Counted from the first letter of the stretch, positions 27,919 to 59,514 are shown. The stretch is 64,000 bases of DNA from a bacterium (GCA_016202645.1 JACQOF010000146.1:620-64619); one strand, 5' to 3'. Notes: generated from the letters alone by a model not told the origin. Program-made: numbers and translations.

Positions 27919-28716
27919 GTGATCAGCAGGGTTGCGATATTGGCCCATTCGGGGAAATCGGAGGCGAAACGGCTGTCGGCGAAACTTCGCCGGGTGTTGG
28001 CGCGCAAGGCGTCAGTGGTCGGTCTGGATCGCGCGGAGATCTGCTTCGTGGTCGGCGGGGACGGGACCATTCTCCGGGCCGCGCCCGAGGCCGCGCGGCT
28101 GGGGGTTCCGCTGGTTGGCGTCAACGCCGGCCGGCTCGGATTTCTGGCGGAACTGTCCGAAGACCGTCTCGGCGCGTCGATCGGCCCGATCCTTGCGGAG
28201 AAATTCTCGATCGAGGAACGAAGGATGATCGAGGTCTCGGTCGGCAAAGACCGCCGGAAGGCCCGCAAACTCGGCGTGGCGCTGAATGAAATGCTCATCG
28301 TCCGGGAAGGCCTTTCGCGCATCGCGGAACTGTCGATCTTCATCGGCGGCGAGTCCGCGGGTCTCTTCAGCCTCGACGGCGTCATCGTCGCCACCCCCAC
28401 CGGCTCCACCGGCCACGCGCTTGCGGCCGGCGGCCCGGTCCTCGCGCCGGAACTCGGCGCGTTTCTGATCGTTCCCTTGTGCCCCCACCCGCCCAGGGTA
28501 AGGCCGATGGTGATTGAGGAAAAAGAAGTGGAGATCGCGTGGACCGGCCGATACCCGGACCTGCGCGTCATGCTCGACGGCCGGAAAGCGGCCAACCTCA
28601 CCTCCGGCCCCAACACCCTCAGAATCCTGCCGTCCCCCTACACAGCCAAATTCGTCCGGCTGAACCGCCGCGAGGCCCCGTCCTTCTTCCACATTGTCCG
28701 GGAAAAACTAATCTAA
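27919..28716 (+). CDS. nadK: NAD+ kinase
   Basis: 'VVGGDGTILRAA', 'GVNAGRLGFLAE', 'DGVIVATPTGSTGHALAAGGP'. Confidence 0.9.
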   Translation: MISRVAILAHSGKSEAKRLSAKLRRVLARKASVVGLDRAEICFVVGGDGTILRAAPEAARLGVPLVGVNAGRLGFLAELSEDRLGASIGPILAEKFSIEERRMIEVSVGKDRRKARKLGVALNEMLIVREGLSRIAELSIFIGGESAGLFSLDGVIVATPTGSTGHALAAGGPVLAPELGAFLIVPLCPHPPRVRPMVIEEKEVEIAWTGRYPDLRVMLDGRKAANLTSGPNTLRILPSPYTAKFVRLNRREAPSFFHIVREKLI

Positions 28717-30650
28717 GCGATACCCGCCCAGCGGAGGCCCTGGACGGCGGCGAGGGCGGAGAGGTAGGCGAGGGCGGTGAAGGCGACGAGTTGGACGGTT
28801 GGAATGTACCATCCGCCGGTTTCCTTGCGGCTGACCGCCACGGTGGACATGCACTGAAGCGCAAATCCGAAGAAGATGATGAGGCCGACGCAGGAGGAAA
28901 ACGTAAAGAGCGGCGAGCCGTCCGCCAGAGTTGCGTTTCGCATCGCCAGAATGAGCGGGCCTTCGATGGCGTCTCCCCCCGCTGACACCATCAGCACCAG
29001 CGCGAGCGCGCCGACGAAAACTTCCCGCGCGGCGAACGCGCAGATGAGCGCCACTCCGACCCGCCAATCAAGACCCAGCGGGCGCATGACCGGTTCCAGC
29101 CACTGGCCGAGGACTGCGGCGTAGGATCCCGCGAGCTGGGCGGACTCGTCGAGGTGAGTTCTTGGCGGCAGATGCGTCAGGGCCCAGAGCGCGACGGCGA
29201 TGCAGAGGATCGTCCCGCCGGCCTTCTGAATGTAGGATTTTGTCCGGTGATACGTGGTCGCCAGGGCCACCCGGAGTTTCGGACGACGGATGGCCGGAAG
29301 CTCAAGCAGAAGCGACGGCCGGACGGATTTTTCCAGGCGGAAGATTTTTCCGAAGAGCGCCGCCGCCAGAAGACCCGCCAGGACGCTGAAGAGATAGAGC
29401 GCCGTCATGCCAAGCCCGCCGAGCCAGGCCATGCCGGGCGGCGTTAAAAACGCGATGAGGAGTCCATACACCGGCAGGCGCGCGCTGCAGACCATGAGCG
29501 GCAGAATGAAAATCGTCAGAAGCCTTTCCCGGGCGCTCGGAATGGTCCGCGTCGACAGCATGGCCGGGATGGCGCAGGCAAACCCCGACAAAATCGGAAC
29601 GAAAGCGCGCCCGCTGAGGCCGACCATCGCAAGCGGCTTGTCGACGATCATGGCGCCGCGGGAGAGATATCCGGAATCCTCGAGAAATCCGAGCGCCAGA
29701 AACAGAATGACGATCTGCGGAATAAACACGGCCACGGCGCCGACGCCCAGAATTACGCCGTCCGTCAGAAGCCGCGTCAGCCAGACGTCCGGGAGGACCG
29801 CCTGAAGCCAGGCCGCGGCGGCGGAAAAAAGCCGGTCGATGCCGTCCATCATCGGCTGGGCCAGCCAGAAGATCGACGTGAAGATGGCCGTCATGATCGC
29901 AGCGAAAACCAGAAATCCCCAGGCGGGATGAAGAAATACGCGGTCGAGCCGCGCCGTCAGCGGATCGGGCATGCAGATCGAAAGGCGGTGCTCGAGCGGC
30001 GTTTTGGAAGTGCTGGTGGTGACGACGCGGGCGGTGACGTTTTCAAGAAACTGGTAGCGCGCTGAAATGTCGCCGGCCGAGAGCGGCGCCGGCCGGGCCG
30101 CCCGGTCCGTCGTTGGCGCCTCCAGGAGGAGCCCCGTCTGCCTCCGAAGTTCTTTCAGACCGACGCCCGTCCGCGCGTCGACCCGGACCACCGGACAGCC
30201 CAGTTCGCGGGAAAGAGCCTCCGCGTCAAATGAGAGATGCTTGCGTTTGTTCAGGATATCGACCATCGTCACCGCCACCACCACCCGATACCCGGCGTCG
30301 ATCAGGCGCTTGGCCGGATAAAGATGCCGAGGGAGCTGGGTCGAGTCCGCGATGGCTACATAGACGGAGGGCGCGCCGTGCGGAGAATCTCCAAAGAGGG
30401 CGCGAATGGCCACCTGCTCGTCCGGCGACGGGCCGTCAAGACTTGTGATGCCCGGAAGGTCCATGACCCGCGCCCGGCGGTTGTCCAGGTCGGCGGCGCC
30501 GATGGCGCAGTCAACGGTTGAACCGGGATAATTGACGGTCCGATAATTGGACCCGGTCAGGGCGTTGAAGACGGTGGTTTTGCCGGAATTGGGAAGGCCA
30601 ACCAGGGCGATGAGCGGCGCCGCGGGCGCCGCCGTTGTCAGAGCAGGCAT
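28713..30650 (-). CDS. feoB: Ferrous iron transporter FeoB
   Basis: G-domain 'IALVGLPNSGKTTVFNALTG...VNYPGSTVD...DLPGITSL' followed by a polytopic membrane domain. Start set at ATG 30650 (MPALTT...), overlapping the feoA 3' end by 13 nt. Confidence 0.9.
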   Translation of the reverse strand: MPALTTAAPAAPLIALVGLPNSGKTTVFNALTGSNYRTVNYPGSTVDCAIGAADLDNRRARVMDLPGITSLDGPSPDEQVAIRALFGDSPHGAPSVYVAIADSTQLPRHLYPAKRLIDAGYRVVVAVTMVDILNKRKHLSFDAEALSRELGCPVVRVDARTGVGLKELRRQTGLLLEAPTTDRAARPAPLSAGDISARYQFLENVTARVVTTSTSKTPLEHRLSICMPDPLTARLDRVFLHPAWGFLVFAAIMTAIFTSIFWLAQPMMDGIDRLFSAAAAWLQAVLPDVWLTRLLTDGVILGVGAVAVFIPQIVILFLALGFLEDSGYLSRGAMIVDKPLAMVGLSGRAFVPILSGFACAIPAMLSTRTIPSARERLLTIFILPLMVCSARLPVYGLLIAFLTPPGMAWLGGLGMTALYLFSVLAGLLAAALFGKIFRLEKSVRPSLLLELPAIRRPKLRVALATTYHRTKSYIQKAGGTILCIAVALWALTHLPPRTHLDESAQLAGSYAAVLGQWLEPVMRPLGLDWRVGVALICAFAAREVFVGALALVLMVSAGGDAIEGPLILAMRNATLADGSPLFTFSSCVGLIIFFGFALQCMSTVAVSRKETGGWYIPTVQLVAFTALAYLSALAAVQGLRWAGIA

Positions 30651-30862
30651 ACCCGGATGGACCCGGCCTCGTATTTCCGCAGAGCGAAAACCGCGCCGCG
30701 GATGTTGACCGCGAGGGGATCGCGAAACGGCGAGGCCGCGACGACCCGGATGCATTCGCCCTCGGTGAATCCCATCTCCAGAAGCCGGCGGGAAAGAGAT
30801 TCTTCGCCGTCAACGGATTCCACCCGCGCCCAGGTGTTGTCCGGAAGGTCGAGCAGGGTCAT
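30638..30862 (-). CDS. feoA: FeoA-family protein
   Basis: 74 aa. 'LSRRLLEMGFTEGECIRVV...GAVFALRKYEAGSIRV'. Confidence 0.85.
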   Translation of the reverse strand: MTLLDLPDNTWARVESVDGEESLSRRLLEMGFTEGECIRVVAASPFRDPLAVNIRGAVFALRKYEAGSIRVCLL

Positions 30863-31350
30863 GACGCGCCGGACTTGGCGGGACTCTTCCGGGACGATTT
30901 TCTCCGGCGGAAGAAATCCTGGAATCCATCAAGGATCTTCCGGCGCTGGCCCAGGTCCGAATCAACGTATTCCATGAACTGCACCATCCGGTCGATGGTC
31001 TCCTGGCTCACCACATGCTCCATCAAACAGGCGTCGGATTTGGCGATGCCTTCCTCCACCCCGAGACACTGGCTGAAAAATTTGCCCATGATTTCACACT
31101 TGGACAAGAGATCCTCCGCGCGCCGCTTGCCTTCCTCGGTCAGCTGGACGTATTCGTAGCGGTCATGCTGGATGAGGGATTTGGCCGCCAGACTTTTCAG
31201 CGCGGCCGTCACGCTCGACATCGACACGTCCAGAGACTCGGCGATGTCCCGCACCCGCGCCACCTGGCGGTGCCGCTGGATCTGGAGGATCGTCTTTAAG
31301 TACATCTCCATGCTTTCGCTCAAGGTACTGCGGGGTCCGGTATTCCTCAT
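30859..31350 (-). CDS. DtxR/MntR-family metal-dependent transcriptional regulator
   Basis: 'MEMYLKTILQIQRHRQVARVRDIAESLDVSMSSVTAALKSLAAKSLI...YEYVQLTEEGKRRAEDL'. Its 3' end overlaps the feoA start by 4 nt (30859-30862). Confidence 0.85.
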   Translation of the reverse strand: MRNTGPRSTLSESMEMYLKTILQIQRHRQVARVRDIAESLDVSMSSVTAALKSLAAKSLIQHDRYEYVQLTEEGKRRAEDLLSKCEIMGKFFSQCLGVEEGIAKSDACLMEHVVSQETIDRMVQFMEYVDSDLGQRRKILDGFQDFFRRRKSSRKSPAKSGAS

Positions 31351-31382
31351 GATTTTCAGACCATCTTATATTGTTTGATGCG

Positions 31383-31937
31383 TCAAAGTAAAGGCTCGGC
31401 CGCCCCGTTGGCGCCGTTCGCGCCGCCGATCGGCCGCACCCAGAGTTCAAACAGGACGGCGCCGCCGCCGAGCAGGGTCGTCAGGAGAAAAAATCCGCCG
31501 GCACCGAGCGTCGCGCCGGCCCAGCATTCGGGGTGGGAGCCGAACCGGATCAGCCAGGGAAACGCCATCATGCTCAGGAAGGAAACAAACGTCAGGACAA
31601 AATAGACGATCTTGGACATTTCGCCGACGGTCGTGAGGGCCGCGAAGTGGCAGAGAATAAAAATCAGCAAGAGAAGCGTAAAGGAGTGGATATGGAAGAA
31701 CTCGAGCATCTCGCCGGTTGATTTGGCGAATTTAAGTTCCGCCGCGCTCGGAGAGCCTTCGTTCCCCAGATAGTATTCCACCACGCCGCCGGAAGTCAGC
31801 CCCGTGCGGTGATGCAGGGTATAGAGCGACAGCCAGATGGCCAGAATCGTCCCGATCAGAAAAAGCGTGATCAGGACCTTGTTCGATATCCGGGTGCGGT
31901 TCAGGGAAAATTTCGGTACGGCGTAATATTGCGTCAT
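31383..31937 (-). CDS. Hypothetical 4-TM membrane protein with conserved-looking His residues
   Basis: ATG 31937 overlaps the upstream stop (ATGA). Four hydrophobic segments. His-containing strings are 'YTLHHRTG', 'FFHIHSF', 'LCHFAAL' and 'GSHPECW'. No family recognised. Confidence 0.5.
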   Translation of the reverse strand: MTQYYAVPKFSLNRTRISNKVLITLFLIGTILAIWLSLYTLHHRTGLTSGGVVEYYLGNEGSPSAAELKFAKSTGEMLEFFHIHSFTLLLLIFILCHFAALTTVGEMSKIVYFVLTFVSFLSMMAFPWLIRFGSHPECWAGATLGAGGFFLLTTLLGGGAVLFELWVRPIGGANGANGAAEPLL

Positions 31938-33532
31938 CTGTATGTGCGATCCTCGAAGTTTTTTGTTTGAAGGCGGCCCGTCCCGCCAAGCCACAGTGCC
32001 TCAAAGCCGGCTTTTTCGACGAACCCCATCCCCTCCACGCCGGCGGCAAACAGCGCGGTCGACAGCGCATCGGCCTTCGCGGATGCGTCGGAACCCAGGG
32101 GGCCGACCACGACAGCCTGAAGACTATCAGGAGGCGGTTTGCCTGTAAACGGATTGATGATGTGCGGTCCGCGCTCGTACGCCCCGGAGACGGACAGAAC
32201 GGCGTCTTTCAAGATCAGCCGTACCAGCGGCCGGACATCCTCCCCGTGCGGCCTGCGCGCGTCCCGGACATCGACTGCCCAGCCCGCCTCGCCGTCCGGC
32301 GCCCCGATCGCCGCGATACTGCTCTCGCCGAAGTTGATGAGAGCCCGTTTGATTCCGGCCTCCTTCAAGATCCGCGCCATCCGATCCACCGCGTATCCCT
32401 TGGCGATGCCGTCGAGATCGAGCCGGACGTCTGTGTCAAGCCGGATGGTTTTTGGGGCTCCAAGAATCATAAAAAATTCCCGGTTTTGAATGAGATGAGG
32501 CGGATCGAGCGGAGCGAACGCCGCATTCGTCTGTTTCACCATTTCGAGAGCCAGCCGGCAGATATCAAAAAAGTCCCCGGAGACGGAGACCTCGGTTGAC
32601 ACCCGCCGCCGGTTGATTTTTGAAATCTCACTGGCGGTGTCATATCGGCTGAATACCGGCGTGAGGCGGTCCACTTCGTCGAAAGCCGCCTCTATGACCG
32701 CCTGCAGGTTCCCCTCGCCCCCGCCGCTGATCTCAATCGCGAGCGTCGTCCCCCAGATGACCTGCGTCCGCCGCACGGTGGAATTCCTCCCCCTGGAGGG
32801 GGGAGGCAAGGAGGGGGTGTGCCCTCGACGTTCTTCAAAAGTAACCCCCCTCCCAGCCTCCCCCTCAAGGGGGGAGGAGGTTTTGATCCCGGCTTCGTAC
32901 AGCGCGAGTATTTTCCGCACCCCCGCCGATATCGCGTTCGTCGAAATCGTCGCGCCGGCGATGTTGCGGATGTCGGTTCCGACGCGCAGCGGATCGGACA
33001 GGGTCTTGCCTGCGAACTGTTTTCGAAAGCGGTCGTACTTGATCTCAAACCCGTAAGCCTCGCGATACACGAGTACCTCCACCGCCCGGATGGTTCCATC
33101 GGCGTTCAGCGCCGCCAGATAGGTGATCATCTCATGCAGACCCTTCACTTCGTCCTCGAACGCATAACCGAGAATTCCCGACCGGTTCCGGATCTCCAAA
33201 TAGTGGACGTAGGGGGCGTCAAAAGGCAGGCGGGAGACTTCCCGGATCCGCATCTTCATCGGCTCGTCCGGCCAGAGGGTGCGCTCCTCTATGGAGGCCG
33301 CGCCGGGGAACAATCGCCGGACGACCTCCCCCGAACTTCTTGCCCCCTCGCCGGCTTCAGCCAAATGCGCGAAGGCGATGGGGGCCGCAAGGATCGCCGG
33401 ACATAAAAAAACGACGGCCTGAATTAGAATGCGGAGCCACCAGGCCCGTATAGGACCCGGTGGCTCCGCCGGTAGGGCCTTTCGGGCCTTACCGGCAAAA
33501 AGGGCGGAAGAACTCGAAATCAGAACTGCCAT
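31934..33532 (-). CDS. Fusion protein: FMN-binding domain + ApbE-family FAD:protein FMN transferase
   Basis: The N-terminal half has an FMN_bind-like end, 'DIRNIAGATISTNAISAGVRKIL'. The C-terminal half is ApbE: 'WGTTLAIEI', 'SEISKINRR', 'DLDGIAKGYAVDRMA', 'LINFGESS', 'SVSGAYERGPHIINPFTGKP', 'KADALSTALF'. Start placed at ATG 33532, which overlaps the porin gene's stop region by 13 nt. Confidence 0.75.
   Translation of the reverse strand: MAVLISSSSALFAGKARKALPAEPPGPIRAWWLRILIQAVVFLCPAILAAPIAFAHLAEAGEGARSSGEVVRRLFPGAASIEERTLWPDEPMKMRIREVSRLPFDAPYVHYLEIRNRSGILGYAFEDEVKGLHEMITYLAALNADGTIRAVEVLVYREAYGFEIKYDRFRKQFAGKTLSDPLRVGTDIRNIAGATISTNAISAGVRKILALYEAGIKTSSPLEGEAGRGVTFEERRGHTPSLPPPSRGRNSTVRRTQVIWGTTLAIEISGGGEGNLQAVIEAAFDEVDRLTPVFSRYDTASEISKINRRRVSTEVSVSGDFFDICRLALEMVKQTNAAFAPLDPPHLIQNREFFMILGAPKTIRLDTDVRLDLDGIAKGYAVDRMARILKEAGIKRALINFGESSIAAIGAPDGEAGWAVDVRDARRPHGEDVRPLVRLILKDAVLSVSGAYERGPHIINPFTGKPPPDSLQAVVVGPLGSDASAKADALSTALFAAGVEGMGFVEKAGFEALWLGGTGRLQTKNFEDRTYR
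32786..32880. repeat. G/C-tract palindromic element, family B (copy B1, inside a coding region)
   Basis: CCTCCCCC-TGGA-GGGGGGAGG (32786-32806) ... CCCCCCTCC-cag-CCTCCCCC-TCAA-GGGGGGAGG (to 32880). Same architecture as B2 and B3. Confidence 0.8.
33433..33504. repeat. Double-hairpin element, family C (copy C1)
   Basis: GGAGCCACC...GGTGGCTCC, then GGTAGGGCC-tttc-GGGCCTTACC, then GGCAAAAAGGG. Collinear with copy C2. Confidence 0.6.
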
Positions 33533-34797
33533 CCGATCCCGGCGTTGAACTTGTCGTTGTCCCGCGTCGACGAATCGGCATCCTTGAAGCTGGTGTAGTC
33601 GAATTTGACGGCCAGGTTCTGCACCGGCTTGAACGTGATGCCGTAGACCCACTGCTCGCGGTCCCGGTTGTTCTGGGCGGTGTTTGTCGAGTTCGACGGC
33701 ATTTTCTCGGCCGTGTCGTACTTCTCAAACCGGACAAACCCCGCCAGACCTGCGTCGCGCAGAAGTCCCTCGCGGTCGCCCGGCTGAATCAGCCAGTAAG
33801 CGCCCTGCGCGTACCAGCCTTCAAGCCGTTCCGCCTGGTCGGTTCCCGTCAGGGTCTTGAGCGCCGCGGCGCCGTCGACGTCGAACTGCGTCCACTCCCC
33901 CACAAAATCGATCCGGTCCTGCTTGTAGCGCGCGTCGAACGCAAGTCCCGTGATGTCCGGCTTGCCGCCCGAATCACTGACCTTGTCCCCCGCGTCCCCT
34001 CCATAATAAGAGAACCCAAGATTGAGCGGGTAGCGCTCGACGGCGTAATCGAGGCGCCCGGCGATGCCGATGTCAAAGACATTGCCGTTCGACTCCGCGC
34101 CGAACTGTTTCTGCCTGTTGTTCCGAAGACCGTCCGTTCCGAGCGTGAGGGCCGGCGTGGTGTTGTCATTCTGCGCGGCGATGAACTGCAGGGCGTTGAT
34201 CGCGTAGACCTGATATTTCAGGCCGGCCGTCAGGTTTCCGAAAAATCCGGCGCCCGCCGCGAACCAGGTGGACGGGATGATCTTGTTGTCCACGTCCGGC
34301 CGCTCCACGCCGTGAAACGTCGGGGGCTCGTGGAACTGGTTGATGACGCCCATCGGCACCACGATGACCCCGGAGCGGATGCCGAAGTCCTCTTTCGGCG
34401 TAAACTCAAGATAAGCCTGCTCGAGTTCGAATTCCCCGTGCCGGTCCCGGATGAAGGAATGCTCGAACTCCAATTCCGAATGAAACTGAATCCAGTCGTT
34501 GAAGCGGTGTCCCACATACAGGACATACCTGTGAAAATCGAGATTCTCTCCGTCGCCGTCCTGAGTCGAGAGATAGTGCATTTCCATGTAGCCGCCCATG
34601 CGGGTTTTCTGCACCGCGCCGTATTGAACCCCGCTCGCGCCCGTCCCGAGCTTTTTCATCTCCTCGATCTCCCGCGAAAGCACGTCAATGCGCCGCTCCA
34701 GATCGTCGGTCGACGCCGCCCGGGCGGGCGCCGCCCCCCACAGGGCGGCCAGGACCAGGGCGCCCAGAGCCGCCCCGAATCGTTTGAATGCCGTCAT
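33520..34797 (-). CDS. Putative outer-membrane porin (beta-barrel with N-terminal coiled-coil)
   Basis: Signal peptide ending 'APARA'. Short coiled-coil 'LERRIDVLSREIEEMKK', as in OprO/P-type porins. Alternating strand pattern. C-terminal '...AGIGWQF'. Confidence 0.65.
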   Translation of the reverse strand: MTAFKRFGAALGALVLAALWGAAPARAASTDDLERRIDVLSREIEEMKKLGTGASGVQYGAVQKTRMGGYMEMHYLSTQDGDGENLDFHRYVLYVGHRFNDWIQFHSELEFEHSFIRDRHGEFELEQAYLEFTPKEDFGIRSGVIVVPMGVINQFHEPPTFHGVERPDVDNKIIPSTWFAAGAGFFGNLTAGLKYQVYAINALQFIAAQNDNTTPALTLGTDGLRNNRQKQFGAESNGNVFDIGIAGRLDYAVERYPLNLGFSYYGGDAGDKVSDSGGKPDITGLAFDARYKQDRIDFVGEWTQFDVDGAAALKTLTGTDQAERLEGWYAQGAYWLIQPGDREGLLRDAGLAGFVRFEKYDTAEKMPSNSTNTAQNNRDREQWVYGITFKPVQNLAVKFDYTSFKDADSSTRDNDKFNAGIGWQF

Positions 34798-34837
34798 GCG
34801 ATAAACCCTCCTTTACCGTAGTTACTATCCTGAAAAC

Positions 34838-34877
34838 TTGATTGATAGATTCAATCAAAGTTAGAGGGTTCTAACTT
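34838..34877. promoter_or_regulatory. Two abutting perfect palindromes in the AT-rich region upstream of the porin operon (candidate operators)
   Basis: TTGATTGA-tagat-TCAATCAA (34838-34858) and AAGTTAGA-gggt-TCTAACTT (34858-34877), 41-80 nt upstream of the porin ATG (34797, minus strand). This is the only markedly AT-rich tract nearby. Confidence 0.45.
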
Positions 34878-34952
34878 CTTGAGAAGGTCTTGTCAATATT
34901 TTCTATTAAAAATATTTTTGGGTGGGATGGACCGAAGGGGGCGCCATAAAAG

Positions 34953-35017
34953 ACGGCTCCAACCGCCAGGCGGCCGGAGCCGTTGGTAAGGTTTTTGACC
35001 TTACCGGCAAAGAGGGG
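34953..35017. repeat. Double-hairpin element, family C (copy C2)
   Basis: ACGGCTCC...GGAGCCGT, then GGTAAGGT-ttttg-ACCTTACC, then GGCAAAGAGGGG. Confidence 0.6.
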
Positions 35018-35078
35018 TTTTCCAAGCGCATTTTACCGAATCCCCGGATCAAAATCCAATGTCATATCAGCGGTGGTT

Positions 35079-35146
35079 GGGAGGGGGGTTTATCCCATCG
35101 AGAGTACCGGTTCACCCCCCTCCTGCCCTCCCCCTCAAGGGGGGAG
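35079..35146. repeat. G/C-tract palindromic element, family B (copy B2)
   Basis: GGGAGGGGGGT ... ACCCCCCTCC-tgc-CCTCCCCC-TCAA-GGGGGGAGG. Confidence 0.8.
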
Positions 35147-35209
35147 GAACTTGTAGGCCGCTTGAAAATCCTCCCGCCGGGGAGTATGTTTAGAGCGAGG
35201 TGAACGGGC

Positions 35210-35461
35210 GTGGATATTGAGGCCATCAAAAATCGGATATCGGGGGCGATCCCGGAATCGCAGGTGTGGGCGGAAGACCTTCAGGGCGGGGACCACGTGT
35301 CGGTGACAGTGGTGTCGTCGGCGTTTGAGGGGAAATCCCGGATCCAACAGCACCAGATGGTCTATGCGCTCTTTAAATCCGAAATGGCCACCGAGGACAT
35401 CCACGCGATGGCGCTCAAGACCCTGACGCCCCGGGAGCATGCCGCCCAGACGGGCGGATAA
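35210..35461 (+). CDS. BolA-family protein
   Basis: 'DLQGGDHVSVTVVSSAFEGKSRIQQHQMVYALFKSEMATEDIHAMALKTLTP'. Confidence 0.85.
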   Translation: MDIEAIKNRISGAIPESQVWAEDLQGGDHVSVTVVSSAFEGKSRIQQHQMVYALFKSEMATEDIHAMALKTLTPREHAAQTGG

Positions 35462-35482
35462 CCGAACGAAGGAGGACGGATC

Positions 35483-35806
35483 ATGGCTGAGGACATCATG
35501 GACCGGATCAAGAAGGACATCGAGTCGAACAAGATCATTCTGTACATCAAGGGGACGAAGGAGCAGCCGATGTGCGGATTTTCCGCGCAGGCGGTCGCGA
35601 TTTTTTCACAGCTCGGCGTTCCCTTCGAAACCCGCGACGTTCTGGACGGGTCGGGCCTTCGGGAAGCCCTCCCCCAGCACTCCAACTGGCCGACGTTCCC
35701 GCAGGTTTTTGTCAACGGCGAGCTCGTCGGCGGATGCGACATCGTCACGGAGATGTACGAAAAAGGGGAATTGCAGCCTTTGGTTCAAAAGGCGATTGCC
35801 GGTTGA
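35483..35806 (+). CDS. grxD: Monothiol (CGFS) glutaredoxin, Grx4 family
   Basis: 'ILYIKGTKEQPMCGFSAQAV...WPTFPQVFVNGELVGGCDIV'. Confidence 0.9.
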   Translation: MAEDIMDRIKKDIESNKIILYIKGTKEQPMCGFSAQAVAIFSQLGVPFETRDVLDGSGLREALPQHSNWPTFPQVFVNGELVGGCDIVTEMYEKGELQPLVQKAIAG

Positions 35807-35824
35807 CGCGCTGCCGACAGATAT

Positions 35825-35861
35825 CCCCCCTCCCACCCTCCCCCTCAAGGGGGGAGGAGGG
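35825..35861. repeat. G/C-tract palindromic element, family B (copy B3, partial)
   Basis: CCCCCCTCC-cac-CCTCCCCC-TCAA-GGGGGGAGGAGG, 24 nt upstream of the acyl-CoA dehydrogenase start. Confidence 0.8.
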
Positions 35862-35885
35862 AATTAAAAGCGCTGGAGTCAATAA

Positions 35886-37757
35886 ATGACTGAACCGGGC
35901 CCCCGCAATTCCTCTGTCTCGCGCGATGAGGCGATGGCCGTCGCCGAGGCCGCGCGCGAGTCGGAGTGGGAACACCCGTCTTTCGCGGCGGAACTTTTTA
36001 TGGGACGCTTCCGGCCCGATCTGATTTTTCCCTATCCTCTCCAGAATGACGCTGACAAAAAAATCGGGGACGAATTTCTGGGGCGCCTCGAGCTGTTTCT
36101 CCGGGAGCATCTCGACCCGGACGAGGTCGACCGCACGCACGAAATTCCCGTCGAAACCATCAAGGGTCTGGCGGAACTGGGATGCTTCGCGATGAAAATC
36201 CCGAAATCCTACGGCGGCCTCGGGCTTTCCCAGGTCAACTACAACCGCGCCGTCGCGCTCGTCGCGTCCTATTGCGGCTCGACGGCGGTGTGGCTCTCGG
36301 CCCACCAGTCCATCGGCGTGCCTCAGCCGCTGAAACTCTTCGGGACGGAAGCACAGAAAAAAAAATATTTCCCGCTGTTCGCGAAGGGATTCATTTCCGC
36401 CTTCGCCCTGACCGAGCCGGACGTCGGGTCCGACCCGGCCCGGATGGCGACCACCGCAACGCCCAACGAGGACAAAAGCGAGTGGACCATCAACGGCGAC
36501 AAGCTCTGGTGCACGAACGGCCCCGTGGCCGACCTCATCGCCGTCATGGCCCGGACGCCGGACCGGATCGTCGGCGGGAAAGCCCGGCGGCAGATCACAG
36601 CGTTCATCGTCGAGCGCGACCGGCCGGGCATCGAAGTCATTCACCGCTGCGAGTTCATGGGATTGAACGGCATTCAAAACGGGCTTCTGAGGTTCACCAA
36701 CGTCAAAGTCCCCGCGGAAAATATTCTCTGGGAGGAAGGCAAGGGACTGAAACTCGCGCTCGTCACCCTCAATACAGGACGGCTCACGCTTCCCGCCGCC
36801 TGCGTCGGGATGGCCAAACAGTGCCTGCACTGGGTCCGGGAGTGGTCCAACGAACGCGTCCAGTGGGGCGCCCCGATCGGCCGGCACGAATCGATCGCGC
36901 AGAAAATCGGCTGGATGGCGTCGACGACCTTTGCCATGGAAGCCGTCACCTACTACGCGTCGGCTCTGGCCGACCGCGGCGACGCGGATATTCGCCTCGA
37001 AGCCGCGCTGGCCAAGATGTTCTGCTCGGAGGCGGCGTGGCGGATCGCGGACGAGACGGTCCAGATCCGGGGTGGCCGGGGATATGAGACATCGCGGAGC
37101 CTGCGCGCGCGCGGCGAAAAGGCAATCCCGGCCGAGCGGGCCCTTCGGGACGCGCGCATCAACACCATCATCGAGGGGTCCAGCGAAATCATGCGGCTCT
37201 TTATCGCGCGGGAGGCCGTGGATCCCCACATGCGGCTGGCTGGAGACATCTTCAAGCCCGGCGTTTCCCTTTCAGAAAAATTCCGGATGGCGGGGCGCGC
37301 CGCCCGATTCTACACGACGTGGTATCCGGCGCTCTGGGTCCACACGGCCTGGCCGCCCAAATACATGGCGACCGCCGGACCTCTCGCCAAACATCTCCGG
37401 TTCGCTCACCGCCAGACCCGGAAACTCGCCCGGACGATCTTCCACGCCATGGCGCGGTTCGGCCCGTCCCTTGAAAAGCATCAGGCGGTCCTGAACCGCA
37501 TCGTCGATATCGGATCGGAACTCTTCGCGATATCCGCGGCCGTGTCCTACGCCCGCGCCATGGTCGAAAAAAATCCGAAAGACAAAACGCCCATCGACCT
37601 CGCCGACCTTTTTTGCCGCCAGTCCCGCCGGCGCGTCCGGGCTCTCGGCTGTGCGATCTGGTGCCACGACGACGCGCGCACGTATCGCCTCGCACGAAAC
37701 GTCCTGGACGGGAAGATGGCGTGGCTGGAGGCGGGGGCGATTGGGGAGACGCCGTGA
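35886..37757 (+). CDS. Long-form acyl-CoA dehydrogenase family protein
   Basis: 'FALTEPDVGSDPARM', 'NGDKLWCTNG', 'AKMFCSEAAWRIADETVQIRGGRGYE', 'RINTIIEGSSEIMR', plus a ~170-aa C-terminal extension. Confidence 0.85.
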   Translation: MTEPGPRNSSVSRDEAMAVAEAARESEWEHPSFAAELFMGRFRPDLIFPYPLQNDADKKIGDEFLGRLELFLREHLDPDEVDRTHEIPVETIKGLAELGCFAMKIPKSYGGLGLSQVNYNRAVALVASYCGSTAVWLSAHQSIGVPQPLKLFGTEAQKKKYFPLFAKGFISAFALTEPDVGSDPARMATTATPNEDKSEWTINGDKLWCTNGPVADLIAVMARTPDRIVGGKARRQITAFIVERDRPGIEVIHRCEFMGLNGIQNGLLRFTNVKVPAENILWEEGKGLKLALVTLNTGRLTLPAACVGMAKQCLHWVREWSNERVQWGAPIGRHESIAQKIGWMASTTFAMEAVTYYASALADRGDADIRLEAALAKMFCSEAAWRIADETVQIRGGRGYETSRSLRARGEKAIPAERALRDARINTIIEGSSEIMRLFIAREAVDPHMRLAGDIFKPGVSLSEKFRMAGRAARFYTTWYPALWVHTAWPPKYMATAGPLAKHLRFAHRQTRKLARTIFHAMARFGPSLEKHQAVLNRIVDIGSELFAISAAVSYARAMVEKNPKDKTPIDLADLFCRQSRRRVRALGCAIWCHDDARTYRLARNVLDGKMAWLEAGAIGETP

Positions 37758-59318: not shown

Positions 59319-59445
59319 TGAGGTCGAGCATCCAGAGGATGTTCTTGCAAGCCGCGGATGACGCGTCCATCTGCCCCAGCCCCGCGCCGGCGAGAAGTCC
59401 CACCAGCATCCCGACGAAAATCAGGTTTCGGAGATCAAATCGCAT
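59311..59445 (-). CDS. Possible 44-aa single-TM micro-protein overlapping the prfC start
   Basis: My own translation, because the ORF is below the track's length cut-off: MRFDLRNLIFVGMLVGLLAGAGLGQMDASSAACKNILWMLDLNG*. Its TGA overlaps the prfC ATG (ATGGATGA). The Shine-Dalgarno sequence is weak. No homology evidence. Confidence 0.25.
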   Translation of the reverse strand: MRFDLRNLIFVGMLVGLLAGAGLGQMDASSAACKNILWMLDLNG

Positions 59446-59460
59446 TTAGACTCTTCTAAC
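59446..59460. promoter_or_regulatory. Palindrome TTAGA-ctct-TCTAAC (second copy of the motif seen at 34861-34876)
   Basis: Read directly. It abuts the start codon of the micro-ORF/prfC unit and lies ~55 nt from the predicted divergent promoter. Confidence 0.35.
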
Positions 59461-59514
59461 AAACACGGCCGGGATGCGCCAGCGCGGACACCCGTTTTTT
59501 GGGGGCGTCAAATG

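What the first reader, a model, noticed from the sequence alone, without database searches (positions are those of the whole stretch)
28713..34877. Candidate undescribed iron-acquisition module: porin / self-contained flavinylation unit / His-rich 4-TM protein / DtxR regulator / FeoAB
Six same-strand genes form the block: porin (34797-33520), FMN_bind-ApbE fusion (33532-31934), 4-TM His-rich protein (31937-31383), DtxR/MntR-family regulator, FeoA and FeoB (to 28713). The junctions are a 13-nt overlap, a 4-nt overlap, a 32-nt gap, a 4-nt overlap and a 13-nt overlap. The block is preceded by an AT-rich region with two perfect palindromes. The divergent neighbours are BolA and a CGFS monothiol glutaredoxin, which in other organisms form an Fe-S/iron-status pair. 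Established background: ApbE enzymes covalently attach FMN to periplasmic or extracytoplasmic FMN_bind domains (NqrC, RnfG, Listeria PplA via FmnB). Flavinylated extracytoplasmic proteins can reduce Fe(III). FeoB imports only Fe(II). Inference: the porin admits Fe(III) chelates. The His-rich membrane protein, possibly haem-binding, passes electrons to the flavinylated domain. That domain reduces Fe(III) in the periplasm for uptake by FeoAB, all under a metal-responsive repressor. Fusing the flavin transferase to its own substrate domain is itself unusual.
Basis: partly seen in the sequence, partly recalled or inferred. Interest (0 to 1): 0.72.

Follow-up and report, generated by a model that had tools for sequence, protein, structure and literature searches.

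The report
Flavin redox cassette joined to FeoAB
An iron-regulated operon in an uncultured Lindowbacteria-like bacterium joins the ferrous-iron importer FeoAB to a three-gene envelope cassette found in several phyla (outer-membrane pore, self-flavinylating periplasmic flavoprotein, uncharacterised four-helix membrane protein), which most likely reduces ferric iron for uptake; this is a new variant of a known theme.

Summary
All six minus-strand genes, every junction and the upstream palindromes are as described.

The first three genes form a cassette of their own:
- an OprP-like porin;
- an RnfG-like FMN_bind domain fused to ApbE;
- a four-helix membrane protein of Pfam family PF27139 (Aq_1264_TM).

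This cassette recurs in Lindowbacteria, Planctomycetota (including anammox Brocadiales), Binatia and Deltaproteobacteria. Every Aq_1264_TM context I examined sits beside FMN_bind/ApbE genes. Some family members are fused to ApbE or FMN_bind, or carry a c-type haem motif.

Proteobacteria and Verrucomicrobia have the same layout, but a different four-histidine, DUF4405-like membrane protein takes that position.

Only Lindowbacteria link the cassette to dtxR-feoAB. There a palindrome over the promoter is conserved, and the regulator keeps DtxR's primary-site ligands (Met, Cys, Glu, His). Two proteobacterial versions lie near feoAB, with fur and bfr or with FTR1.

Not supported:
- haem binding by the membrane protein is unproven, because only an HxH motif on one helix is invariant;
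- the BolA/Grx adjacency is not conserved;
- the fusion is not unique.

Periplasmic ferric reduction feeding Feo is plausible (about 0.5) but inferred. Flavinylation clusters next to iron transporters are already published, so this is a new variant of a known kind.

The parts
34891..34896 (-). Perfect TTGACA -35-like hexamer upstream of the porin gene
   Evidence: Read directly from the sequence. The consensus scan did not call a full promoter because the -10 is weak.
34858..34877 (.). Operator-like palindrome AAGTTAGA-N4-TCTAACTT, with DtxR/IdeR-like GTTAG/CTAAC half-sites at non-canonical spacing. It overlaps the expected -10 position.
   Evidence: the only exact match in the window; 0.28 matches expected by chance at up to 2 mismatches. 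The near-identical AAGTTAAAATACTCTAACTT lies upstream of the fusion gene in the Lindowbacteria locus L001.
34838..34858 (.). Second perfect palindrome, TTGATTGA-N5-TCAATCAA
   Evidence: TTGATT flanks are also present in L001.
33520..34797 (-). Outer-membrane beta-barrel, a distant OprO/P-like porin, with signal peptide, N-terminal coiled coil and C-terminal ...GWQF
   Evidence: Homologues sit immediately upstream of the FMN_bind gene in at least 15 loci from several phyla. Eight of 18 homologues hit Porin_O_P. OprP is the top PDB match at E 0.03.
33431..33497 (-). Two tandem stable hairpins just after the porin stop codon, within the first 34 codons of the fusion ORF
   Evidence: -62.6 kcal/mol for the 121-nt stretch, z = -5.3.
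31934..33532 (-). Fusion protein: N-terminal membrane anchor or signal (residues ~26-55), RnfG/NqrC-like FMN_bind domain, disordered linker, ApbE flavin transferase domain
   Evidence: Foldseek matches Ftp/FmnB/ApbE at E 4e-19 and RnfG/NqrC at E 3e-7.
32948..32950 (-). Codon of Thr195, the predicted flavinylation site in the motif D-I-R-N-I-A-G-A-T-I-S
   Evidence: G193, A194, T195, I196 and S197 are invariant in 17 fusion homologues. The motif definition is from PMC8238504.
32786..32877 (.). Two inverted copies of a GC-rich palindromic repeat inside the inter-domain linker. They form a ~95-nt hairpin and encode the disordered residues 221-249.
31383..31937 (-). Four-helix inner-membrane protein of Pfam family PF27139 (Aq_1264_TM), the candidate membrane partner of the flavoprotein
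   Evidence: AF2 pLDDT 92.4. Context and fusion evidence.
31686..31694 (-). Codons of the invariant H82-x-H84 motif at the predicted periplasmic end of TM2
   Evidence: 78 of 78 family members. Topology is inferred from the positive-inside rule, from the CxxCH insertion in the TM1-TM2 loop of P0307, and from the extra TM/lipobox in the TM4-ApbE fusions.
30859..31350 (-). Two-domain DtxR/MntR-family regulator with DtxR-type primary-site ligands M16, C108, E111 and H112
30638..30862 (-). FeoA
28713..30650 (-). FeoB ferrous iron transporter
   Evidence: TIGR00437 above its cut-off.

Best explanation
A DtxR-type, probably Fe(II)-responsive operon in which feoAB has acquired a self-contained, widely conserved envelope redox cassette. 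The cassette has three parts:
- an OprP-like outer-membrane barrel;
- a membrane-anchored periplasmic RnfG-like FMN_bind domain that carries its own ApbE flavin transferase;
- the inner-membrane four-helix protein Aq_1264_TM.

Proposed mechanism:
1. The ApbE domain attaches FMN covalently to Thr195 of the neighbouring domain.
2. Aq_1264_TM docks the flavoprotein and supplies electrons from the membrane.
3. The reduced flavin converts Fe(III), which enters through or is held at the porin, to Fe(II).
4. FeoB imports the Fe(II).
5. When iron is replete, the regulator shuts the operon by binding the palindrome over the promoter.

Shown: gene content, domain identities, motif conservation, the structure models, cross-phylum synteny of the cassette, the gene fusions, and conservation of the operator-like palindrome.

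Inferred: every electron-transfer step, any cofactor in Aq_1264_TM, the porin's substrate, and iron as the substrate.
For: - Domains and junctions are as described.
- The fusion model has a TM helix, then an RnfG/NqrC-like domain, then an ApbE-like domain.
- Thr195 and the GATIS motif are invariant. H457 and the DALST motif of ApbE are conserved.
- Fusion-TM4-DtxR-FeoA-FeoB is conserved in Lindowbacteria relatives.
- Porin-fusion-TM4 is conserved in Planctomycetota. The order porin-FMN_bind-TM4-ApbE occurs in Binatia and Deltaproteobacteria.
- Family members are fused to ApbE or to FMN_bind. One carries CxxCH in the periplasmic loop next to the HxH motif.
- The equivalent position in proteobacterial cassettes holds a four-His, DUF4405-like protein. 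DUF4405 has been shown experimentally to be a flavinylation-associated haem b protein (PMC11334425).
- Independent iron links: L056 has the cassette next to feoB-feoA-fur-bfr; L074 next to feoAB-FTR1-cupredoxin; L045 has a bfr-like gene; L075 has a fur-like gene. No such neighbour occurs in 52 ApbE-only loci (Fisher p = 0.017).
- DtxR primary-site ligands are conserved.
- The palindrome is conserved upstream in L001.
- Published analogues: VciB ferric reduction and flavinylation/iron-transporter clusters (PMC8238504); B. breve SifE and apbE iron phenotypes (PMC5449479).
Against: - In most lineages the cassette stands alone among unrelated, variable neighbours, with no iron genes. Iron reduction therefore cannot be read from context in general.
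- Aq_1264_TM has invariant His only on TM2, and H97 is present in 68% of members. It shows no homology to known flavinylation-associated cytochromes and no solved-structure match. A few members lack the HxH motif.
- The Lindowbacteria ApbE domains lack about 15-20 residues, including part of the FDxTxGPL region kept by the Planctomycetota fusions.
- Three related Lindowbacteria loci have lost the porin to an integrase/transposase insertion, so the porin is dispensable there.
- No electron donor is encoded in the block.
- The Feo co-occurrence statistics rest on few loci. For feoAB alone it is 2 of 31 against 0 of 52, p = 0.14.
Confidence: 0.5

Rival explanations
1. The cassette is a general-purpose extracytosolic electron-transfer module whose substrate is not iron, for example a periplasmic repair, detoxification or respiratory acceptor. 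Its position in the Lindowbacteria feo operon would then reflect co-regulation or operon shuffling, not a shared pathway.
For: Most cassette loci have no iron genes. Their neighbours are heterogeneous (DUF6662, cytochrome c, CCP_MauG, GGDEF and others). Flavinylated systems serve many functions (PMC8238504).
Against: The genes overlap translationally with a DtxR-type regulator and feoAB in all Lindowbacteria relatives. A single conserved operator-like site lies upstream. feoAB/fur/bfr/FTR1 neighbourhoods recur independently in Proteobacteria.
Confidence: 0.24
2. Porin-flavoprotein conduit. The FMN_bind domain engages the outer-membrane barrel, as MtrA engages MtrB, and delivers electrons to extracellular or surface Fe(III) minerals. 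The released Fe(II) then diffuses back in to FeoB. This is a spatial variant of the best explanation.
For: An outer-membrane barrel gene (this porin family or DUF6662) sits immediately upstream of the FMN_bind gene, often overlapping it, in most of the 31 cassette loci: this porin family in at least 15 loci, and DUF6662 for 9 neighbour proteins. The porin family has invariant Glu/His clusters (E108, E110, E112, H113, H156). Flavinylated outer-membrane barrels (DUF3570) are known (PMC8238504, PMC11334425).
Against: No structural or co-folding evidence could be obtained here. The porin is missing from three Lindowbacteria loci that keep the rest of the operon.
Confidence: 0.12
3. Flavin trafficking or salvage. 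The ApbE/Ftp-like domain hydrolyses or handles FAD in the periplasm, the porin admits flavins, and the four-helix protein moves flavin across the inner membrane.
For: The closest structural match is T. pallidum Ftp, a bifunctional FAD pyrophosphatase/FMN transferase. A self-contained flavinylation unit needs a periplasmic flavin supply.
Against: A dedicated acceptor domain with an invariant flavinylation motif is fused to the enzyme. The analogous position in other phyla holds a four-His cytochrome-like protein, not a transporter. One family member carries a c-type haem motif.
Confidence: 0.06
4. The operon handles manganese rather than iron. The regulator scores best against MntR models, and some FeoB paralogues transport Mn.
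For: The best NCBIfam and PDB matches are to MntR. The regulator has two domains and no SH3 domain, like MntR.
Against: The metal ligands are DtxR-type: Met and Cys stand where MntR has Asp and Glu (M16, C108, E111, H112). The top PDB hit is in fact the MntR D8M mutant. FeoB passes the TIGR00437 equivalog cut-off.
Confidence: 0.04

Closest known systems
Flavinylation-associated gene clusters colocalised with iron transporters (MsrQ-like, PepSY-like, DsbD or NQR/RNF-like with VIT1; P19/FTR1 with FMN_bind), Meheust et al. 2021, PMC8238504
   Same: An extracytosolic FMN_bind substrate plus ApbE, encoded next to a ferrous-iron transporter. The proposed role is assimilatory iron reduction.
   Different: The transporter here is FeoAB, which does not appear in that paper's text or in its held supplements. 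The membrane partner belongs to none of the five described classes. A dedicated outer-membrane barrel is part of the unit. The substrate and the transferase are one polypeptide.
DUF4405 and FezC flavinylation- or ferrosome-associated haem b proteins (Huang et al. 2024, PMC11334425)
   Same: A small inner-membrane helical protein encoded next to apbE. In proteobacterial and verrucomicrobial versions of this same cassette, the slot is filled by a four-His protein with weak DUF4405 similarity.
   Different: Aq_1264_TM shows no detectable homology to that family (hhalign probability 0.5%). It has invariant His only as HxH on one helix. Haem binding is untested.
Vibrio cholerae VciB, an inner-membrane ferric reductase (described via PMC8238504)
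   Same: The functional logic: reduce Fe(III) outside the cytoplasm.
   Different: VciB is a PepSY-like protein and is not associated with flavinylation components. There is no sequence relationship, no porin and no flavoprotein.
RnfG / NqrC plus a stand-alone ApbE
   Same: An N-terminal membrane anchor, the FMN_bind fold, and a Thr in an xGAT motif. The ApbE fold with its catalytic His and DALST motif.
   Different: None of the other Rnf/Nqr subunits is encoded in the block. ApbE is fused in cis. The Lindowbacteria ApbE domain has a deletion of about 15-20 residues.
Trypanosomatid fumarate reductase with an N-terminal ApbE domain (PMC12052999; bioRxiv 10.1101/2020.12.30.424822)
   Same: The flavin transferase is fused to the protein it flavinylates.
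   Different: That protein is eukaryotic and intracellular, the domain order is reversed, and the target domain and function differ.
Bifidobacterium breve SifABCDE and apbE (PMC5449479)
   Same: A membrane-associated FMN_bind protein (SifE) lies in an iron-uptake cluster, and an apbE mutant is impaired when ferrous iron is chelated.
   Different: Gram-positive organism, ABC-type transporter, no porin, no Aq_1264_TM, no fusion.

Membership tests
ApbE (FAD:protein FMN transferase, PF02424) | Sequence and fold match to the family | tested here: met
   Pfam E 1e-41 over residues 261-514. Foldseek matches Ftp, FmnB and ApbE at E 4e-19 with target TM-score 0.73-0.77.
ApbE (FAD:protein FMN transferase, PF02424) | Catalytic His in HxIxP and the D-A-L-S/A-T metal-binding motif | tested here: met
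   PHIINP (H457) aligns to HHIIDP of T. pallidum Ftp, and DALSTA aligns to DALATA. H457 and D488 are invariant, and T492 is nearly invariant, across 17 fusions. The roles of these residues are from my own knowledge of the ApbE literature.
ApbE (FAD:protein FMN transferase, PF02424) | Complete N-terminal flavin-pocket region (AFDxTxGPLxxLW) | tested here: inconclusive
   All six Lindowbacteria-type sequences lack about 15-20 residues here and read AFAPLDPP. The Planctomycetota fusions keep the motif. The AF2 model still folds this domain with pLDDT mostly 80-98.
ApbE-flavinylated FMN_bind substrates (PF04205; RnfG/NqrC type) | FMN_bind domain above the curated threshold | tested here: met
   34.3 bits against a cut-off of 22. 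RnfG and NqrC are structural matches at E 3e-7.
ApbE-flavinylated FMN_bind substrates (PF04205; RnfG/NqrC type) | Flavinylation motif Dxx(s/t)gA(T/S) | tested here: met
   D187-I-R-N-I-A-G-A-T195-I-S. D187, N190 and A192 through S197 are invariant in the alignment.
ApbE-flavinylated FMN_bind substrates (PF04205; RnfG/NqrC type) | Extracytosolic location | tested here: inconclusive
   A hydrophobic helix (residues 26-61 in the model) and signal-like N-termini in the homologues support export. However, this depends on the ATG at 33532: NCBI's 459-aa call (P0017) starts after the anchor. No signal-peptide predictor was available.
ApbE-flavinylated FMN_bind substrates (PF04205; RnfG/NqrC type) | Covalently bound FMN | not testable with these tools
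   Needs protein expression and a UV-fluorescence or mass-spectrometry assay.
Feo ferrous-iron transport system | FeoB with G domain, Gate domains and FeoB_C; FeoA partner | tested here: met
   FeoB_N, Gate x2 and FeoB_C are present. TIGR00437 scores 389.9 bits against a cut-off of 315.65. FeoA scores E 1.5e-18.
DtxR/IdeR-type iron-dependent repressors | N-terminal wHTH domain plus metal-binding/dimerisation domain | tested here: met
   PF01325 and PF02742 are both above their cut-offs.
DtxR/IdeR-type iron-dependent repressors | Primary metal site M10, C102, E105, H106 | tested here: met
   An ungapped BLASTP alignment to DtxR places M16, C108, E111 and H112 at those positions.
DtxR/IdeR-type iron-dependent repressors | Ancillary site (H79, E83, H98) and C-terminal SH3-like domain | tested here: not met
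   The equivalent residues are C85, G89 and K104. The protein is 163 aa with no third domain. In architecture it resembles MntR.
Phosphate-selective porin O/P superfamily (PF07396) | Profile match | tested here: inconclusive
   The window protein has no hit even at E 1. Eight of 18 homologues do hit (best E 2.7e-10). OprP 2o4v is the top PDB match for the family profile at E 0.03.
Aq_1264_TM (PF27139) | Profile match | tested here: met
   The precomputed Pfam assignment for the identical protein P0001 and for all homologues is PF27139. The model is absent from the local Pfam copy. I found no paper on the family in the searchable library.
[quoted passage not shown] | Pairs of conserved axial His on two helices; homology to one of these families | tested here: not met
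   Invariant His occur only on TM2 (H82, H84; H97 in 68% of members). There are no Pfam hits to these families. hhalign against the DUF4405-like family of the sister cassettes gives probability 0.5%. No PDB fold match was found. A homodimeric haem site, as proposed for FezC, could not be tested.

The most novel reading that the evidence does not exclude
Aq_1264_TM would be a previously unrecognised class of flavinylation-associated inner-membrane redox protein, additional to the NapH-, MsrQ-, PepSY-, DsbD-, NQR/RNF-like and DUF4405 classes. Together with the dedicated outer-membrane barrel and the self-flavinylating RnfG-like protein, it would form a minimal three-protein, flavin-based trans-envelope conduit. 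This would be a flavin counterpart of porin-cytochrome complexes. Bacteria from Lindowbacteria to anammox Planctomycetota would use it to reduce Fe(III) at or beyond the outer membrane, and Lindowbacteria would have wired it directly to FeoAB.
Probability: 0.2. Interest if true: 0.8.

Novelty: new variant of a known kind. Interest (0 to 1): 0.55.

Why it matters
FeoB imports only Fe(II), yet how bacteria in oxic or micro-oxic habitats obtain periplasmic Fe(II) is known for few systems.

This locus is a compact, testable candidate: four proteins plus a regulator. It also gives a functionless Pfam family (PF27139) a concrete context, because every member I examined is embedded in, or fused to, flavinylation machinery.

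The same cassette occurs in anammox Brocadiales, organisms with a very high iron demand. In Proteobacteria it occurs with a different membrane partner. The result therefore extends the published catalogue of flavin-based extracytosolic electron-transfer systems, and it points to outer-membrane barrels as regular components of them.

If the function is not iron reduction, the cassette is still a widespread three-component envelope system with no described function.

Tried and rejected
- **Local Pfam and NCBIfam on the 4-TM protein and the porin:** no usable hits.
- **Foldseek of the high-confidence Aq_1264_TM model against the PDB:** nothing significant. The best match is MAPEG at E 0.63. A weak MAPEG Pfam hit in P0307 (E 0.042) is noted but not trusted.
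- **Homology of Aq_1264_TM to the four-His family of the proteobacterial cassettes:** rejected; hhalign probability is 0.5%.
- **The search for related loci with Aq_1264_TM alignments:** failed because no stretch was conserved enough. I used the fusion alignment instead.
- **Riboswitch or other known RNA in 28000-36000:** none found. The only hits were sub-threshold miRNA-like matches caused by the linker hairpin.
- **BolA/Grx as part of the system:** rejected, because they are not adjacent in either relative with upstream sequence.
- **A wider regulon for the palindrome within the window:** one 2-mismatch match at 59444, next to prfC and a Bax-inhibitor-like gene, which is consistent with chance.
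- **Literature searches:** Aq_1264/PF27139, DUF6662 and flavinylation+FeoB all returned nothing. The supplements of PMC8238504 that are held contain no FeoB or Lindowbacteria entries.

Full report
**1. Observation**

The ORF table and the sequence reads confirm six co-directional minus-strand genes:
- porin 33520-34797;
- FMN_bind-ApbE fusion 31934-33532;
- 4-TM protein 31383-31937;
- regulator 30859-31350;
- FeoA 30638-30862;
- FeoB 28713-30650.

The junctions are exactly as reported: overlaps of 13 and 4 nt, a 32-nt gap, then overlaps of 4 and 13 nt.

Pfam and NCBIfam confirm FMN_bind (34.3 bits, cut-off 22), ApbE (E 1e-41), both DtxR-family domains, FeoA, and FeoB (TIGR00437 above its cut-off). 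They also confirm BolA and a CGFS glutaredoxin on the other strand.

The upstream region is relatively AT-rich and contains three perfect palindromes.

The window's own proteins are identical to proteins of a MAG deposited simply as 'bacterium' (HY522 locus tags, 110-kb contig). The closest named relatives are Candidatus Lindowbacteria.

**2. The fusion protein**

The alignment of 17 fusion homologues shows G193-A194-T195-I196-S197 invariant within DIRNIAGATIS. This matches the published flavinylation motif (PMC8238504).

In the ApbE domain, H457 (PHIINP) and DALSTA align to HHIIDP and DALATA of T. pallidum Ftp.

The AF2 model has mean pLDDT 77.8. It shows:
- a long N-terminal helix (residues 26-61);
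- an alpha/beta domain (residues 67-219);
- a disordered linker (residues 221-249);
- a well-folded C-terminal domain (residues 252-522).

Foldseek matches the C-terminal domain to Ftp, FmnB and ApbE (E 4e-19, target TM-score 0.73-0.77). It matches the N-terminal part to RnfG and NqrC (E 3e-7).

The homologues have signal-peptide-like N-termini. The ATG at 33532 is the only canonical in-frame start that keeps the hydrophobic segment. NCBI's 459-aa call starts after that segment.

One caveat: all six Lindowbacteria-type sequences lack about 15-20 residues, including part of the AFDxTxGPL region that the Planctomycetota fusions retain.

**3. The membrane protein**

It has no hit in the local Pfam copy. 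The precomputed annotation places it, and all its homologues, in PF27139 'Aq_1264_TM'.

An exhaustive profile search found 233 representative clusters at E ≤ 0.001. In a 78-member alignment, H82, H84 and G58 are invariant, and H97 is present in 68% of members.

AF2 gives a confident four-helix bundle (pLDDT 92.4). It has no significant match among solved structures.

The topology appears to be N-in with the HxH motif at the periplasmic end of TM2. Three lines of evidence support this:
- the positively charged N-terminus;
- a family member (P0307) with a CxxCH motif, carrying weak Cytochrom_C hits, inserted in the TM1-TM2 loop;
- TM4-ApbE fusions (P0126, P0172) that keep an extra TM/lipoprotein-signal segment before the ApbE domain.

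**4. Synteny and the real unit of conservation**

*Lindowbacteria relatives* (about 70% identical). These keep fusion-TM4-DtxR-FeoA-FeoB and the downstream NAD kinase neighbourhood. One relative also has the 422-aa porin-like gene. In three others an integrase and a transposase occupy the porin's place. BolA/Grx are not next to the block in either relative with upstream sequence.

*Planctomycetota.* Fusions about 33-35% identical are flanked by a porin homologue upstream and an Aq_1264_TM gene downstream. None has Feo or DtxR nearby.

*A scan of species-representative genomes followed by local HMM searches* gave three architectures:
- (A) porin - fusion - TM4, in Lindowbacteria and Planctomycetota, including Brocadiales.
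- (C) porin - FMN_bind - TM4 - ApbE as separate genes, in a Binatia genome and a deltaproteobacterium.
- (B) porin or DUF6662 barrel - FMN_bind - ApbE - a different 140-160-aa four-helix protein, in Proteobacteria, Verrucomicrobia and one planctomycete.

Four more distant Aq_1264_TM members again sit directly after an ApbE or FMN_bind-ApbE gene. In the three contigs that extend further upstream, a 430-480-aa unannotated protein precedes that gene.

Every Aq_1264_TM context I examined is therefore a flavinylation context. Pairwise fusions exist between all three components: FMN_bind-ApbE, TM4-ApbE and TM4-FMN_bind.

**5. The type-B partner**

The type-B partner has four invariant His: two on TM2, 18 residues apart, and two on TM4, 14 residues apart. 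It shows weak DUF4405 similarity (E 1.4e-3). DUF4405 proteins were shown experimentally to be flavinylation-associated haem b proteins (PMC11334425).

Aq_1264_TM is not detectably homologous to this family (hhalign probability 0.5%). The two look like alternative occupants of the same functional slot. This is the best indirect argument that Aq_1264_TM links the flavoprotein to the membrane electron pool. It does not show that Aq_1264_TM binds haem.

**6. The porin**

The window protein has a signal peptide, an N-terminal coiled coil and a C-terminal GWQF. Its family hits Porin_O_P in 8 of 18 members, and OprP is the top PDB match, though weakly. The family has invariant acidic and His residues: E108, E110, E112, H113, E126 and H156. 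Its substrate is unknown.

**7. The iron link**

*In Lindowbacteria the link is structural.* The genes overlap, a single promoter region serves the block, and a regulator gene lies inside the operon. The regulator is MntR-like in architecture, but it has Met16, Cys108, Glu111 and His112 at the positions of DtxR's primary site. The ancillary site is not conserved.

The palindrome AAGTTAGA-N4-TCTAACTT lies where a -10 element would follow the perfect TTGACA. It recurs as AAGTTAAAATACTCTAACTT immediately upstream of the fusion gene in L001, where the porin is absent.

*Outside Lindowbacteria,* probes for Feo, Fur, Bfr and FTR1 found:
- L056: the cassette followed by DUF6587, feoB, feoA, fur and bfr;
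- L074: feoAB, FTR1 and a cupredoxin nearby;
- L045: a bfr-like gene;
- L075: a fur-like gene.

No such neighbour was found in 52 loci that matched only through ApbE. Fisher's test gives p = 0.017 for any iron gene and p = 0.14 for feoAB alone. A Pfam census of 147 neighbours of 31 cassette loci is otherwise heterogeneous.

Iron is therefore a recurrent partner of the cassette, but not a universal one.

**8. Mechanism and comparison with known systems**

The most likely reading is that Lindowbacteria have coupled a pre-existing envelope flavin redox cassette to Feo, so that it acts as an assimilatory ferric reductase. All electron-transfer steps are inferred.

The idea has published relatives:
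- flavinylation clusters next to VIT1 or P19/FTR1, and the VciB reductase (PMC8238504);
- DUF4405/FezC cytochromes (PMC11334425);
- SifE and apbE phenotypes in B. breve (PMC5449479);
- ApbE fused to its target in trypanosomatid fumarate reductase (PMC12052999).

What I did not find described in the searchable literature:
- Feo as the partner transporter;
- the Aq_1264_TM family as a flavinylation partner;
- the regular presence of an outer-membrane barrel gene (for DUF6662; 'porin' is absent from both key papers).

I therefore rate it a new variant of a known kind, of moderate interest.

**9. Other features seen**

- A GC-rich palindromic repeat occurs four times in the window. Two inverted copies lie inside the fusion's inter-domain linker, where they form a roughly 95-nt hairpin and encode the disordered segment.
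- Two stable hairpins follow the porin stop codon.
- No known riboswitch is present.

Noticed in passing
window 32786-32805, 32857-32876, 35127-35146, 35837-35856: A GC-rich palindromic repeat (core CCTCCCCCTCAAGGGGGGAGG, shared over ~35-40 nt) occurs four times, where none is expected by chance. Two inverted copies lie in-frame inside the FMN_bind-ApbE linker. They fold into a ~95-nt hairpin (-76.8 kcal/mol, z = -4.9) and encode the disordered residues 221-249. The other two copies are intergenic, one between the porin and bolA genes and one after grx. None of the 91 fetched loci has the element. It looks like a REP/MITE-like element tolerated in a coding linker.
   Followed up: partly
window 33431-33497 (- strand): Two adjacent strong hairpins, with stems of roughly 11 and 15 bp in the fold, start about 25 nt after the porin stop codon, inside the first 34 codons of the fusion ORF (z = -5.3). 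They could be a processing or stability element that sets the porin-to-downstream stoichiometry. They could also mean that the annotated overlap start needs checking. Relatives share a KALPxxP peptide at this position.
   Followed up: partly
window 31934-33532; protein P0017: The public annotation of this gene (459 aa) starts at Leu74, after the hydrophobic anchor. That start would wrongly predict a cytoplasmic protein. Homologues and the AF2 model support the longer form.
   Followed up: yes
L001 2793-6101, L002, L003: In three Lindowbacteria contigs a Transposase_mut gene and a phage-integrase gene sit where the porin gene lies in the window. The operator-like palindrome is retained directly upstream of the fusion gene.
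   Followed up: partly
L056 7768-8214; L047 8199-8624; L044 8251-8715; L036, L011 and others: A family of 140-160-aa four-helix proteins with four invariant His (two on TM2, two on TM4) lies immediately downstream of apbE in proteobacterial and verrucomicrobial cassettes. It has only sub-threshold DUF4405 similarity, so it is probably an unannotated dihaem cytochrome b family.
   Followed up: partly
L047 5901-6812 and eight other neighbour ORFs in cassette loci: DUF6662 (PF20367), a family of unknown function with beta-barrel-like features, is the most frequent neighbour family (9 of 147 proteins, best E 2e-103). In L047, the one locus checked, it takes the porin's place upstream of the FMN_bind gene. 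No literature on it was found.
   Followed up: partly
protein P0307 (363 aa, metagenomic): An Aq_1264_TM family member has a ~150-residue insertion in the periplasmic TM1-TM2 loop. The insertion contains CVRCH, a c-type haem-binding motif, just before the THAH motif.
   Followed up: partly
L008, L009, L010, L013, L087: The cassette (fusion with or without porin and Aq_1264_TM) is present in anammox lineages: Brocadiaceae, Brocadiales and Candidatus Scalindua.
   Followed up: no
porin family alignment A8 (window residues 108-113, 126, 153-156, 166): The porin family has an invariant acidic/His signature (ELExEH, NxxHEP, GVERP), unlike the basic ladder of phosphate porins. This might indicate cation or metal selectivity.
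   Followed up: no
window 59444-59461: The only other match in the window to the operator-like palindrome has 2 mismatches (ATTTAGACTCTTCTAACA). It lies between prfC and a Bax-inhibitor/YccA-like membrane protein gene and is compatible with chance.
   Followed up: yes
L056 8240-8575: A DUF6587 protein is encoded between the cassette and feoB in a Burkholderiales MAG. It may be a Feo-associated small membrane protein.
   Followed up: no
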